NCBI GenBank assembly: GCA_965227295.1
Contig: OZ245742.1
Span: 3,040,001 to 3,104,000, forward strand
Source of the DNA: Leptonemataceae bacterium
GTDB taxonomy: Bacteria; Spirochaetota; Leptospiria; Leptospirales; Leptonemataceae
DNA: 64,000 nt
Direction: 5' to 3'
The position numbers and the translations under genes were made by a program. Each line of letters begins with the position of its first letter. Positions within the stretch are counted from its first letter, which is position 1. A model generated the notes under the pieces. It was not told the origin of the DNA. It saw only the letters and a program-made list of their open reading frames with translations, and searched no databases. Shown piece after piece: positions 26,485 through 64,000 of this stretch.

Positions 26485-27258
26485 ATGTTAAGAATGAATT
26501 CTCGAATTGTTGTCTTGTTTGCGGCGGTCGCTTTCGCCGCGGTCGGTTGCGGCGGCCCACTGGCTGAGGCGCGCATGTGTCAGAAGCTCGAAGGCGGGGA
26601 GTGTCCCGAGGGCCTGGAGATGTTCGTGCGCACGGCGAAGCGTTTGTATCTGAGCGGTCATCCGAACGTGGGAGCCGGCGCCGGCATTGAAGTGGACGTG
26701 CTGTATCTCCCGGAACCGGAAACGCCGGAGAGTGTTTACAACACGGTCTTCGAAGTGCCCGAGGGTGACGGGCCGGTGGCGATTCCCCTGGAACCGGGGC
26801 GGCTGAAGGTCGGATCGTATCGCCTGGTGGCGGGGGAGGCGGGCGCGGAGCCGGCCCTGGCCATGGAGTTCAGCGTCTGGAACACCCAGGCGGAGATTGA
26901 TGCGTTGCGCGAACTGGGTGACAAACGCGGTGCGATTCTCACGAGCATTCGCGTTTGCAAAGAAGCGGTGGACAACGAGTGCGAAGAAAGCTTCGAAAGC
27001 ATGCCGCACGGACAGAAGCAGTTTCATCTTACGTTTCACTACGACGATGTCATCGACGGCACCGAGGTTTCGATCGAATGGCTACGCAACGGCAAACGCA
27101 TCCACTTTCAAAAGAATCCGGCGGATTCCAGCAGCGGTCGCATGTGGGCGATGATCGGTCTTAAGAACTCGCCCATGGCCCGCGGAAAGTACGAGGCGCG
27201 CATTACGGCTTCGAAGAGCAAGCAGGGGATGTTGCGGAAGACGTGGGTGGTGAAGTAG
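26485..27258 (+). CDS. Lipoprotein with two tandem Cys-paired beta-rich domains
   Basis: Lipobox AVGC; RMCQKLEGGECPE and RVCKEAVDNECEE repeats. Confidence 0.7.
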   Translation: MLRMNSRIVVLFAAVAFAAVGCGGPLAEARMCQKLEGGECPEGLEMFVRTAKRLYLSGHPNVGAGAGIEVDVLYLPEPETPESVYNTVFEVPEGDGPVAIPLEPGRLKVGSYRLVAGEAGAEPALAMEFSVWNTQAEIDALRELGDKRGAILTSIRVCKEAVDNECEESFESMPHGQKQFHLTFHYDDVIDGTEVSIEWLRNGKRIHFQKNPADSSSGRMWAMIGLKNSPMARGKYEARITASKSKQGMLRKTWVVK

Positions 27259-27266
27259 GGGGAGGC

Positions 27267-28061
27267 TCAGGCGTCCTCTAAGACTCCGCGTTCGCGCAGT
27301 AGTTCTGCGGAGAGCCCGGTGGCCTCAATGACCGTGGCCGGATCGATCCCGAGTTCCAGCAAGCGCCGGGCAGTGTCGAGTTTGCCTTCTGCAATGCCTT
27401 CTTCACGGCCTTCTTCAATGCCTTCCTGGCGAATCCAATCGTAGACGGGAGACTCAAACATCAACGGACCTGCCTGGCGCATGATTTCCCGCGCACGCTC
27501 GGGATCGTGGATTCCAGTATAGATGTATAAAACCGAAAGTAAACTCGTTTTTTCATCCGGTGATAGGTTGTCTTCGTTTTGGATGCGTTGTCTTGCGCGC
27601 TCGACATACTGGTCGCCGTCCTGCATCAGGGGGATAAACGGCAGGATCGACACCCCGGCATCAATATAATCTGCTGCGGGCAATTCCCAGAGTTTCACAA
27701 GATGATAGCGAAATCGCAGGGCGTGGTCCGCGTACACATCTCGCGCGCCGGCATGCGGCCGAATCAAAAATACAAGCGCATCCACCGGCAGGCGATAGCG
27801 CAGCCAATAACGTGCATGGTACTCCACCAATCGCATGGGCAGGCCCGTCTCCCAGTTCGTCTGGTACTCTACTAAGACGACACGTTCCTCTCCGGATGCC
27901 AGAGTCATACGAACCGGCGCGTCGGATCGACGGACGTTGACGGTTTCCGTCGGCAGTTCGTCGAGAGTCTGAATTGCCGACGGCCGGACCTGTAGGAACT
28001 TTTGTAAGATCTCGTGTCCGCTGATCTGCATGAATTCTTTGGATGCGATGTCGTACTGCAT
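27267..28061 (-). CDS. Rpn family recombination-promoting nuclease / putative transposase
   Basis: YDIASK, RRSD...LVEYQ catalytic-type motif, LPFIPLM, EEGREEG repeats, TGLS tail. Confidence 0.85.
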   Translation of the reverse strand: MQYDIASKEFMQISGHEILQKFLQVRPSAIQTLDELPTETVNVRRSDAPVRMTLASGEERVVLVEYQTNWETGLPMRLVEYHARYWLRYRLPVDALVFLIRPHAGARDVYADHALRFRYHLVKLWELPAADYIDAGVSILPFIPLMQDGDQYVERARQRIQNEDNLSPDEKTSLLSVLYIYTGIHDPERAREIMRQAGPLMFESPVYDWIRQEGIEEGREEGIAEGKLDTARRLLELGIDPATVIEATGLSAELLRERGVLEDA

Positions 28062-28113: not shown

Positions 28114-28229
28114 GGAAGAAATGTAGAATGGATCGCGATGTGCGGGCTGCTTTATGAATCGCCTGTAATGTCTCGCAGTCAGGATGCTGCGGTAGTCACG
28201 AGTGGTGAAGCAGGGGATAGGGTGCCCTT

Positions 28230-28721
28230 TCAGATTTCACGGATATATCGAATGGGAATGAACGAGATGTTTTCCGTCTGATCTAGCTTCCCGTCATCTT
28301 CGGCGCCCGTTACGGCGATGCCGACGACTCGACCGCTCTTATTGAACACTGGTCCGCCACTGTTTCCTGCAACAATACCCGAGTCGAGCAGGATACGTTT
28401 GATTCCGGAAACCATTCTATGGCCCGTGATTCGGACTTCCTTTCGGATGCCGGAGTCTCCATGGCGATAGTTTGGAAAGCCGCATACATATAGTGTTTCT
28501 CCGGTGTGGTAAGATGCGTTGTATTCCGCCTGAAAAGGGATTGTAGACACGGATGAATAGCACTCACAGACTGCAAGGTCGATGTCGGACGACCTTTTCA
28601 CTAAGTTGAGGGAGAAACTCTTGGTATCCTGATCGCGCAAGAAGGCTTTCGAATCTGCAAATACGACATGATCGCAAGTTACAATGCCCAGATCTTCCAA
28701 GGCGAATGCTGTTCCCTGCAT
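28230..28721 (-). CDS. Trypsin-like serine protease domain (retron effector), in frame with the RT
   Basis: Catalytic triad motifs TCDHVV, DIDLAV and GNSGGP; frame stays open upstream to 28787, directly behind the RT stop. Confidence 0.85.
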   Translation of the reverse strand: MQGTAFALEDLGIVTCDHVVFADSKAFLRDQDTKSFSLNLVKRSSDIDLAVCECYSSVSTIPFQAEYNASYHTGETLYVCGFPNYRHGDSGIRKEVRITGHRMVSGIKRILLDSGIVAGNSGGPVFNKSGRVVGIAVTGAEDDGKLDQTENISFIPIRYIREI

Positions 28722-28787
28722 AGCCTCCTGCTCAGATTCTACAACGAATATGCTGTTCCACTCAGAAATCGGAGGTGGTGCGACAAT

Positions 28788-29774
28788 TTAATCTGGAAGC
28801 ACGGATCTGAGTCTATCAAAGTAATTCTGATACACGGGATGATAAGGCCCCAATATCGCATATAAAAAGCTGAGCTTGCCGTTGATATGATGTACCAAAG
28901 ACGGATCGCGATCGCGGTATCGATTCCTATTTGCATATTTCGTTGAGAACTCTTCTTGGGTTTTCTTCAGGTCTTCCTTCCGTATTTTGCTGTAAATCGC
29001 TCTGAGCTCTCTTATGAATTTTCTGCCCGGAGTGACCGAGCTAGTCACTCGTAGGCCGGTGACGATTCCGCCGTTACTACCGTAGTAGAATTTTTGTTTC
29101 CGGCGGTTAATATGAAACCCATTTTCTTGGATGCAGTCCTCTATAGTATTCTGTAGAGATTGAGGTAGTTGGCCCGGGGATGACAGGTATTTCTTACTGC
29201 GGGATGAAAATGTAAGGTCGTCGGCGTAACGAGTATAGAATATCGAATATTCTCGGGCAACGGAGAGAAGATCGCGATCCATACTTCTGCAGACGATGTT
29301 AGACAGGATCGGAGATGCCGGAGAGCCAAGCGGAAGTGCGTTATCCAATGTGCTTAGCCTTGAAATGGCAACCGCGACTTGTTTATTGAAGCAAAAAGGT
29401 CTACCTCTTAGAGCACCGAGCACTCTTCCGAAATTGATAGAACCGAAAAAGTCCTCAAGATCCAGATTTAGAATCCACGCCGCGCCAACGTGCTGCCTGG
29501 CATTCGTGATAATACTCCGGCCAGTTCTGAAACCATGAGTCGAGCCCGGCGCAGTGTACGATTGTTCCAAAAGGGTTTTGATTTTCCTCTGCAAGGCTTT
29601 GAGGTAACTACCCGGGGCCGCAATTTGGCGGGCCTTTCCTTCGTATTTCACAATTTCGTGGCGACTGTAGAAGGAGGGCAGGTAGGCCTTAAATGCAAAG
29701 AACTCTAACCCTTTGTAGCTAACATTCAAAATTTGTGCGAGCTGGTGTAGGTTCCCCGGATAATTCGTTTCCAT
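28788..29774 (-). CDS. Retron-type reverse transcriptase
   Basis: NARQH (retron NAxxH), LDLEDFFGSI, LPLGSPASPILSN, YTRYADDLTFS, VTGL (retron VTG). Start taken at METNYP; ORF open from 29804. Confidence 0.92.
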   Translation of the reverse strand: METNYPGNLHQLAQILNVSYKGLEFFAFKAYLPSFYSRHEIVKYEGKARQIAAPGSYLKALQRKIKTLLEQSYTAPGSTHGFRTGRSIITNARQHVGAAWILNLDLEDFFGSINFGRVLGALRGRPFCFNKQVAVAISRLSTLDNALPLGSPASPILSNIVCRSMDRDLLSVAREYSIFYTRYADDLTFSSRSKKYLSSPGQLPQSLQNTIEDCIQENGFHINRRKQKFYYGSNGGIVTGLRVTSSVTPGRKFIRELRAIYSKIRKEDLKKTQEEFSTKYANRNRYRDRDPSLVHHINGKLSFLYAILGPYHPVYQNYFDRLRSVLPD

Positions 29775-29779
29775 AAGTA

Positions 29780-29945
29780 AAAATAGCCTCGTTAGAGTTC
29801 GCACTCTGATACATCAACCGACTACAGTCAGTCGCAAAGTCACATAAAGCGTTCTCAGGATTCATGTCCTGAATCGGCTGCAGTAACAACAGCCTTGAAA
29901 AACTCTGGAGGCAGTTGCAAATGGGCCTTCCCAATGCTCACATTT
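29780..29945 (-). ncRNA. Candidate retron msr-msd non-coding RNA
   Basis: Hairpins at 29917-29937, 29876-29894, 29855-29872, 29819-29834 and 29794-29807; long-range pairing of 29900-29912 with 29786-29800; immediately upstream of the RT. Confidence 0.6.
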
Positions 29946-62350: not shown

Positions 62351-64000
62351 ATGAAGGATCGTCTCTGGTCTCGCAAAGATTTTCTGAAGTTCATGGGCCG
62401 CGGCGCCGCGGCCGTTCCCGCCGCAACCATGTTGGGCGCTTTCATGAACCGTTGCCGGCCCGGTAACGCACCCGCGGGCATCGCTCCCTCGGACAGGGAC
62501 GCTCTGCTTCTCGCGCACGGTCTGAACTACGACATCCTCGTGCGTCACGGCGACATCATTCAAAACGAAGCCGGGCTGCGTTTCGGAATGAACAACGATT
62601 ACCTGGCGTTGCTCCCCGACCGTGACGGCCGCGCCGATCGACTGACGCTCTGGGCGAACCACGAAACACCGGCGGGCATGTTCTACGAACCGACCGGGCG
62701 TTTCATCTGGCGTCCGAAAAACGCCGCCGAGTTCGCGGCGCAGCGCACTGCCGTCGGCGGGAGCTGTCTGACGATCCGCCGGGATACGAAGCGCAAGTGG
62801 CACGTGGAAACGGCGGACCAACGGAACTTTCGCATCGATGCGACGACGATGATTCCGTTTAGCGTGCCCATCGACGGGGCCGAAGTCGCCGAGGGTACGT
62901 TCGGCAATTGCGCGGGGGGCTTAACTCCCTGGGGTACGATCTTAACGTGCGAGGAGAATCACACCTACTACTACGGCGACTCCATGTGGCAGGGCGGGCG
63001 GAACGTGGACCTGTTCGATGCGATCCGAACCGGCGGCTACGCCTGGAATCGTTTTCGTCCGGGAAATCGGCCGAATCACTACGGCTGGGTCGTCGAGGTG
63101 GACCCGCGCACGGGCCGCGCACAGAAACACGTTTCCCTGGGGCGTTGTTTTCACGAATGCGCCACCGTGGCGCAGGCCCGGGACTACGATCAGAGCGGTC
63201 TCGTAGCCGTTTACACCGGCGACGATCGTTACGGCGGCTGCATCTATAAGTTTCTCTCAACGAAAGCTAAGAGCGTGGAGGCGGGGCGGCTCTTCGTCGC
63301 CGTAATGGACGAGTCTCCCCGGGCGGAGGTTGCCGCCGAGGGCAAGAAAATTCGCGGGCGCTGGGTGGAACTGAACGTTCGCGATCCGCGGCTCGCGCGC
63401 TTTCGTTCGCAGACGAACGTCATGATCCACGCCCGCCAGGCCGCGATGGCCGTGGGCGGCACGGAACAGGATCGCCCCGAGGACATCGAAGTCGATCCGC
63501 ATAGCGGAGACGTTTATGTTACGCTCACCTATGATAACAAAAAAGAAATACCGAATTTGTTCGGTTCCATTCTGCGCATCGAAGAAGACGGCGGCGATCC
63601 CTTCGCCGCGGAATTCACAGCGTCCGTCTTCAAAAGCGGCGGGACCGAGAACGGCTTCGCCTGCCCGGACAACCTGGTCTTCGATCCGCGCGGCAATCTG
63701 TGGATGGTCAGCGACATCTCCGAAAAGAGCATGAACAAAGGCGAGTACGCCCCGTTCAAGAACAACGGTTTGTTTTTTATTCCCATGCGCGGAGCCGACG
63801 CCGGCCGGGTGATCCAGGTCGCCAGTGCGCCGGTGGACGCCGAGTTTACAGGGCCGTGTTTTGCGCCGGACGGCCGCACGTTGTTTTTGTCCGTGCAGCA
63901 TCCCGGCCTGCGTTCGACGACGCTCTCCGACATGACGTCTCGCTGGCCCGACGGCGATCGGCCGAAGAGCGCCGTCGTTGCGATTCGCGGTGAGCTGCTG
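62351..64000 (+). CDS. phoX: PhoX family alkaline phosphatase (partial, stop beyond the window)
   Basis: Tat-like SRKDFLK, LWANHE, NCAGGLTPWGTILTCEEN, DRPED, ACPDN, EFTGP, SVQHPG. Frame is consistent at both ends; absent from the ORF track. Confidence 0.9.
   Translation, partial: MKDRLWSRKDFLKFMGRGAAAVPAATMLGAFMNRCRPGNAPAGIAPSDRDALLLAHGLNYDILVRHGDIIQNEAGLRFGMNNDYLALLPDRDGRADRLTLWANHETPAGMFYEPTGRFIWRPKNAAEFAAQRTAVGGSCLTIRRDTKRKWHVETADQRNFRIDATTMIPFSVPIDGAEVAEGTFGNCAGGLTPWGTILTCEENHTYYYGDSMWQGGRNVDLFDAIRTGGYAWNRFRPGNRPNHYGWVVEVDPRTGRAQKHVSLGRCFHECATVAQARDYDQSGLVAVYTGDDRYGGCIYKFLSTKAKSVEAGRLFVAVMDESPRAEVAAEGKKIRGRWVELNVRDPRLARFRSQTNVMIHARQAAMAVGGTEQDRPEDIEVDPHSGDVYVTLTYDNKKEIPNLFGSILRIEEDGGDPFAAEFTASVFKSGGTENGFACPDNLVFDPRGNLWMVSDISEKSMNKGEYAPFKNNGLFFIPMRGADAGRVIQVASAPVDAEFTGPCFAPDGRTLFLSVQHPGLRSTTLSDMTSRWPDGDRPKSAVVAIRGELL

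What the first reader, a model, noticed from the sequence alone, without database searches (positions are those of the whole stretch)
28722..28790. RT and protease are one reading frame broken by a single TAA
Seen: minus strand reads GTG CTT CCA GAT TAA ATT GTC GCA CCA CCT CCG..., i.e. VLPD*IVAPPPISEWNSIFVVESEQEAMQGTAF. Twenty-two sense codons follow the stop and lead in frame into the protease. They include a Pro-rich linker and SIFVVE, which resembles the first strand of a trypsin fold. Read-through would give a fusion of about 514 aa. AGGAGG lies only 2 nt before ATG 28721, too close for normal initiation. Inference: a recent nonsense mutation that silences a toxic effector while leaving the RT intact, a sequencing error, or a regulated read-through or fission. 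The read-through case would be new, for example a sensor of phage suppressor tRNAs.
Basis: partly seen in the sequence, partly recalled or inferred. Interest (0 to 1): 0.75.

Follow-up and report, generated by a model that had tools for sequence, protein, structure and literature searches.

The report
Type XI retron with nonsense mutation
A single stop codon splits a bacterial anti-phage retron gene between its reverse transcriptase and its protease, which are one protein in nearly all relatives examined, so this is most likely an ordinary, recently broken copy rather than a new read-through switch.

Summary
In detail: a 328-aa retron RT, one TAA (28788-28790), then 185 in-frame codons of a trypsin-like protease with an intact His-Asp-Ser triad. 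Both halves score best to PADLOC RT-Protease_XI, so the locus derives from a type XI retron. The TAA stands in contigs of both runs that hold the locus (one study; one may be the source), so a random error is unlikely; a shared systematic error stays open. No relative shares the stop: 119 of 119 other top protein hits and 40 of 41 other DNA loci are fused; the exception is another one-hit knockout (frameshift). TAA is an ordinary stop here, no suppressor tRNA was found, and the phage-recoding survey I read reports TAG and TGA reassignment only. Starting at ATG 28721 would drop a conserved beta-strand. The protease shows no decay, so the stop is recent. An msr-msd-like RNA lies upstream; its predicted branching G is T here (G in 19 of 23 relatives), and the RT has PLG for PQG. 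Verdict: likely a recently inactivated allele. Read-through about 6%.

The parts
29786..29912 (-). predicted msr-msd ncRNA: 5' arm 29901-29912, hairpin 29876-29894, second hairpin 29855-29872, 3' arm 29786-29799
   Evidence: fold z -3.97, 0 of 200 shuffles as stable; 12 of 12 named pairs kept in 3 of 3 Leptospirales loci, 2 with changes on both sides, shuffle control 51/500 so not significant alone; same layout at 23 of 41 other type XI loci
29900..29900 (-). T at the position predicted to be the branching G
   Evidence: G in L009 and L010; G after two pyrimidines at this register in 19 of 23 other type XI loci, counted by eye; position assigned by analogy with Eco2 rG15, not tested
28788..29774 (-). 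retron RT ORF, 328 aa, ending at the TAA; YADD at 29217-29228; PLG for PQG at 29328-29330
   Evidence: Pfam RVT_1; PADLOC RT-Protease_XI best; best structural match Eco2
28788..28790 (-). in-frame TAA in the variable RT-protease linker
   Evidence: same letters in contigs of runs X1 and X2; aligned codon GAA in L010 and AAC in L009
28722..28787 (-). 22 sense codons: linker, short helix and a conserved beta-strand of the protease (28734-28751)
   Evidence: strand E352-357 in the model; columns F353, V354, E356 are W 92, V 88, E 104 among 119 relatives
28724..28729 (-). AGGAGG formed by the codons CAG GAG GCT, 2 nt before ATG 28721; likely incidental
   Evidence: the ATG aligns to ATA in L010 and AAA in L009
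28230..28787 (-). trypsin-like serine protease domain, 185 aa; triad His 28668-28670, Asp 28578-28580, Ser 28359-28361; annotated only from ATG 28721 as 163 aa
   Evidence: Pfam Trypsin_2 E 4e-17; triad columns invariant in 22 of 22 aligned; 0 of 20 highly conserved columns changed

Best explanation
The locus is a type XI retron gene (upstream ncRNA plus RT-protease) in which a single TAA, likely a recent nonsense mutation, cuts the reading frame in the linker, so the cell would make the 328-aa RT but not the fused protease and the system is predicted to be switched off. Shown: the frame, the stop, the family, fusion in relatives, an undecayed protease. Inferred: that translation ends at the TAA, that no useful protease is made from ATG 28721, that the protease is the toxic effector, and that the stop is recent. 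Sub-hypothesis, about 30%: the sensor side failed first (branch G to T, PQG to PLG) and the stop was selected because it removed an unrestrained protease; neutral decay of an acquired island fits as well.
For: 119 of 119 other listed protein hits carry both domains in one chain. 40 of 41 other RT-plus-protease DNA loci are one open frame; the other, L051, has one frameshift near the RT end, i.e. another one-hit loss of the protease. 4 of 153 related RT loci have a stop or frameshift inside the RT, so broken copies occur at a few per cent. The three closest relatives are fused. TAA ends 1416 of 4123 coding-like frames in this genome; none of 86 tRNAs found reads a stop. Both runs that hold the locus show the TAA with no other letter. 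The protease half has 0 of 20 conserved columns changed and a shorter branch than the RT half (0.44 against 0.72), so there has been little time to decay. The locus is low in G+C (0.47-0.49 against 0.60) and not found in 2 of 2 same-genus genomes, as expected of a recently acquired defence element.
Against: An intact protease is equally expected under sequencing error or read-through. No close sense allele was found (nearest relatives are 43-46% identical), so the mutation is not seen directly. The ncRNA and RT changes are not proof of inactivity: L033 has T at the same ncRNA position with an intact fusion, 10 of 119 fused relatives lack the PQG glutamine, and intact P0003 departs from consensus as often (8 against 7 of 57 RT columns).
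Confidence: 0.78

Rival explanations
1. The TAA is a systematic base-calling error shared by both runs, and the real gene is an intact 514-aa type XI retron.
For: The protease is undecayed. Both runs come from one study, their library type is not on record, and X1 may be the source of the assembly. Only contigs were available, which drop minor variants. The context GAT-TAA could arise from a miscalled GATC.
Against: Zero differences at depth 175 (X1) and 12 (X2, another sample). GAT precedes 31 of 1306 TAA/TAG junctions (2.4%) against 53 of 1846 terminal TAA/TAG (2.9%), although 1649 in-frame GAT-CAR targets exist; GATC is at 0.98 of expectation. Only 10 of 146 adjacent same-frame pairs have a late start, so nonsense errors are not common in this assembly.
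Confidence: 0.1
2. The TAA is a conditional read-through switch: the protease is attached only when a phage suppressor tRNA or loss of release-factor activity lets ribosomes pass, which would make the retron a sensor of phage recoding.
For: The stop lies in the variable linker, where many residues are tolerated (20 different residues among 119 relatives); it leaves an RT that ends where stand-alone clade-8 RTs end (4-10 residues past the profile in L012, L013, L031, L032 and others); the protease is intact. Phage suppressor tRNAs exist (10.1101/2021.08.26.457843, passages).
Against: Seen in 1 of 42 type XI loci; a selected switch should recur. That survey reports only TAG-to-Gln and TGA-to-Trp reassignment and finds TAA the preferred stop; both release factors read TAA (same passages). 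No host suppressor tRNA. No precedent in searches.
Confidence: 0.06
3. Gene fission: RT and protease are now two proteins, the protease starting at ATG 28721 or by re-initiation, and are held together on msDNA.
For: An in-frame ATG with AGGAGG nearby exists and the 163-aa product keeps the triad. The same protease module is fused to other N-terminal domains in many proteins, so it is modular. Many other retron types have separate effectors (PMC7736814, passages).
Against: The 163-aa product lacks strand 352-357, conserved across the family. The 2-nt spacing is too short for efficient initiation (own knowledge), the ATG is not conserved, and no ordinary start precedes the strand. No split pair among 41 other loci. 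The 2 stand-alone-length relatives found look like fragments of longer non-RT fusions (P0124 is the tail of 377-aa P0125; P0123 resembles the tail of 346-aa P0126). In Eco2 the freed effector domain is toxic while the fusion is not (PMC12405507, passages). About a dozen short hits could not be placed in context.
Confidence: 0.04

Closest known systems
[quoted passage not shown]
   Same: Same RT clade, same protease, same order and linker length; both halves score best to these models; upstream ncRNA with inverted repeats.
   Different: The fusion is interrupted by one TAA; predicted branch G is T; PQG is PLG.
Closest fused relatives P0003 (Leptospira sp. SA-E8), P0004 (Leptospira kobayashii), P0005
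   Same: One clade with the window protein in both halves, support 1.0; the loci of P0003 and P0004 share the near-identical ncRNA hairpin.
   Different: All three are open through the linker (509-523 aa); only 40-43% identical in the RT and 49-50% in the protease.
Retron Eco2 (Ec67, type I-C, RT-TOPRIM)
   Same: Best structural match (9lm3, E 1e-24); same ncRNA layout of repeat arm, branching G, short single strand, stem-loop; effector caged by msDNA is the model for how type XI likely works.
   Different: Effector is a TOPRIM RNase, not a protease; the gene is intact and its defence is shown.
[quoted passage not shown]
   Same: An XI-like RT without a fused protease.
   Different: Those have lost the protease and carry WYL or DnaB_C partners; here the whole protease is still in frame behind the stop.

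Membership tests
Retron type XI | clade-8 retron RT with YADD, NAxxH and VTG | tested here: met
   PQG reads PLG
Retron type XI | trypsin-like serine protease with His-Asp-Ser directly behind the RT | tested here: met
Retron type XI | RT and protease in a single open reading frame | tested here: not met
   TAA at 28788-28790; filed as a broken allele derived from type XI, not as a working member
Retron type XI | upstream ncRNA with a1/a2 inverted repeats and hairpins | tested here: met
   no Rfam match
Retron type XI | branching G directly after the repeat arm | tested here: inconclusive
   T at the predicted position, G in 19 of 23 relatives, T also in intact L033; the true branch point is unmapped
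Retron type XI | msDNA production and phage defence | not testable with these tools
   needs experiments
Programmed stop-codon read-through | stop kept at the same place in diverged relatives with a conserved frame behind it | tested here: not met
   0 of 41 other loci and 0 of 119 listed proteins
Programmed stop-codon read-through | a decoding tRNA or an altered code in the host | tested here: not met
   no stop-reading anticodon among 86 tRNAs; TAA is a common terminator
Programmed stop-codon read-through | fusion protein detected | not testable with these tools
   no RNA holder listed; no proteomics
[quoted passage not shown] | no protease; WYL or DnaB_C gene within two genes | tested here: not met
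   protease present; neighbours are an Rpn-like gene and Hsp20

The most novel reading that the evidence does not exclude
A type XI retron that has traded msDNA sensing (branch G and PQG lost) for a translational fuse: its protease stays behind an ochre stop until a phage suppressor tRNA or a phage attack on termination lets ribosomes read through, making it a sensor of phage recoding.
Probability: 0.06. Interest if true: 0.85.

Novelty: new member of a known kind. Interest (0 to 1): 0.15.

Why it matters
As a broken allele it matters little: it is one more defence gene caught just after inactivation, with a second one-hit example (L051). Two modest uses: gene callers split such alleles into an RT and a truncated protease and can inflate counts of 'protease-less type XI' retrons; and the locus yields a recognisable ncRNA layout for canonical type XI (23 of 41 other loci), for which PMC7736814 found none, PMC13712802 gives models only for non-canonical lineages in the section read, and the Khan census validated at least one. 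If read-through were real it would be a new way for a defence system to sense phage, directly testable in a suppressor strain.

Tried and rejected
Rfam: no match at E up to 10. No RNA holder listed; run X3 laid nothing; neither is evidence. A protease-only alignment had no searchable stretch; the narrower one gave a metagenome scan dominated by other trypsin-like proteases and added 6 RT-protease loci of 80. The phylum search (401 genomes) found no further full-length type XI; the plasmid search listed 4 records covering 80% or more, each one piece, not inspected further. The paralogue test for broken genes was swamped by off-frame matches (159 junctions) and was used only for the GAT-context count. 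Relaxed ARAGORN returned 3707 calls, which is noise, and timed out. The promoter/terminator scan was at chance level. An empty insertion site could not be defined: no synteny in G019 or G020. The Atlas gave no answer for the side family. Three look-ups in earlier findings returned nothing. My first reading of L051 as 'two stops plus a frameshift' was corrected to a single frameshift. Genomic context of short protease hits (P0123, P0229, P0232 and others) could not be read.

Full report
Observation. The minus strand carries a 328-aa ORF from ATG 29774 that ends in TAA at 28788-28790, followed in frame by 185 sense codons and a TGA at 28230-28232. Twenty-two codons separate the TAA from ATG 28721 and none is ATG, GTG, TTG or CTG. 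AGGAGG lies 2 nt before that ATG.

Identity. The first part is a reverse transcriptase and the second a trypsin-like protease (Pfam). Both score best to PADLOC's single-gene RT-Protease_XI models. [quoted passage not shown] A model of the read-through with X at the stop is confident (pLDDT 87.5) and its best structural match is retron Eco2. His379, Asp409 and Ser482 are invariant in 22 of 22 aligned sequences. The host is in the same order as Leptospira but another family (inferred: loci L009 and L010 from same-order genomes encode P0004 and P0003). The locus is low in G+C (0.47-0.49 against 0.60) and was not found in 2 of 2 same-genus genomes, 93% complete.

Is the stop real? Two runs hold the stretch, from two samples of one study. 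Their contigs cover the stop at depth 175 and 12 with no other letter and no gap. X1 may be the source of the assembly, the platform is not on record, and contigs drop minor variants, so this excludes a random error but not a shared systematic one. For the one systematic error I could name (GATC read as GATT), GAT is not enriched before TAA/TAG junctions (31 of 1306 against 53 of 1846 terminal stops, with 1649 in-frame targets). Few genes look split by a stop (10 of 146 adjacent same-frame pairs have a late start). I leave 10% for error.

Is the stop shared? The protein search listed 120 of 1879 hits; apart from the window's own RT, 119 of 119 carry both domains in one chain, though this search favours full-length proteins. 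DNA searches read through stops and so test this better: among all loci fetched up to, 44 had RT followed by protease; 3 were copies of this locus and were dropped; of the other 41, 40 are one open frame. The exception, L051, has a single frameshift near the RT end, so the method does see broken copies. Four of 153 related RT loci are broken inside the RT, so a few per cent of copies are broken at any time. The aligned codon is GAA in L010 and AAC in L009.

Read-through. TAA ends 1416 of 4123 coding-like frames, and none of the 86 tRNAs found has a stop-reading anticodon. The survey of phage recoding reports only TAG-to-Gln and TGA-to-Trp changes, finds TAA the preferred stop, and notes that both release factors read it (10.1101/2021.08.26.457843, passages; its figure on TAA suppressors was not visible). 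Searches for a defence system gated by read-through, or a retron effector behind a premature stop, listed nothing relevant (listings only). In favour: the stop sits in a tolerant linker and leaves an RT as long as stand-alone clade-8 RTs.

Fission. A protein from ATG 28721 lacks strand 352-357, whose columns are conserved (W 92, V 88, E 104 of 119). The ATG and AGGAGG arise from codons that differ in the closest relatives. A search for protease-length relatives gave 2 besides the window's own, both apparently pieces of longer non-RT fusions. In Eco2 the isolated effector is toxic and the fusion is not (PMC12405507, passages), which argues against a free effector being kept.

Age. The protease half has 0 of 20 highly conserved columns changed, one stop only and no frameshift, and its branch is shorter than that of the RT half (0.44 against 0.72). 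By my own rough estimate (about 46 non-synonymous sites untouched) less than about 6% neutral divergence has passed since the stop. This fits a recent mutation but equally an error or read-through.

The ncRNA and the sensor side. An element at 29786-29912 folds with terminal inverted repeats and two hairpins (z -3.97; L010 z -2.68, L009 z -1.42). All 12 pairs named are kept in the three Leptospirales loci, two by changes on both sides; with three sequences this is not significant alone (51 of 500 shuffles; slid controls 28-47% paired). The same arm-G-linker-hairpin layout, with complementary arms, was found at 23 of the 41 other type XI loci, three of them weak hits. It matches Eco2's repeat, rG15, short single strand, stem-loop. 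At that position 19 of 23 have G (counted by eye); the window has T. The RT also has PLG for PQG (Q in 109 of 119). Against reading these as lesions: intact L033 also has T, 10 fused relatives lack the Q, and intact P0003 departs from consensus as often. So the RT-ncRNA may or may not still make msDNA. Type XI was described as lacking a recognisable ncRNA; PMC13712802 (abstract, section 15 part 1 of 2, section 16) gives models for non-canonical lineages; the Khan census (10.1101/2024.01.25.577267, passages and section 4 parts 1-2 of 3) says some validated ncRNAs are type XI. Its supplementary data, which I did not see, may map the type XI branch point.

Mechanism. By analogy with Eco2, where msDNA cages the fused effector until a phage nuclease degrades it (PMC12916289, passages), an intact type XI protein would hold its protease inactive until infection; this is inferred, and the searches listed no functional study of a type XI protease. 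Here translation is predicted to end after the RT, the protease is not attached, and defence is lost. Whether the stop was neutral or selected against self-harm, possibly after the ncRNA or RT changes, cannot be told from one allele.

Verdict. Observation confirmed; most likely a recently inactivated type XI retron (0.78); shared error 0.10; read-through 0.06; fission 0.04. Interest 0.15.

Noticed in passing
window 27267-28061 (-): An Rpn-family nuclease/putative transposase gene (TIGR01784, just under cut-off) lies directly behind the retron, flanked by a 35-nt direct repeat at 27227-27261 and 28182-28216, with at least three paralogues in the genome. Rpn proteins are reported as anti-phage toxins with intragenic antitoxins (10.1101/2023.05.02.539157, listing only).
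   Followed up: partly
proteins P0126-P0137 and many more: A large family of about 345-aa proteins joins a roughly 170-aa N-terminal domain with no Pfam match to the same protease as type XI retrons; other partners are about 580-aa, 1065-aa (HEAT repeats) and 1376-aa proteins. Possibly unnamed defence sensors sharing one effector.
   Followed up: partly
L051:2947-4543 (+): A second type XI retron with a single frameshift near the RT end that uncouples an otherwise intact protease; its ncRNA keeps the predicted branch G.
   Followed up: yes
genome C1 4547528-4550814 and 4555959-4559530 (outside the window): Two tRNA arrays of 26 and 15 genes that look like partly inverted copies of each other.
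   Followed up: no
L030:2760-2800 and L035:2755-2795; L050, L068, L083, L097: Some clade-8 retrons have T or C where most have the predicted branching G, so priming may differ in these lineages.
   Followed up: partly
L012, L013, L031, L032, L035, L039, L045, L049, L070, L071: Clade-8 RTs that end 4-10 residues past the RT profile with no fused effector and no protease in the flanks fetched.
   Followed up: no
window 63351-63446 (-): ARAGORN calls a tRNA-like element with an undefined anticodon.
   Followed up: no
whole genome: CTAG is strongly avoided (0.10 of expectation).
   Followed up: no
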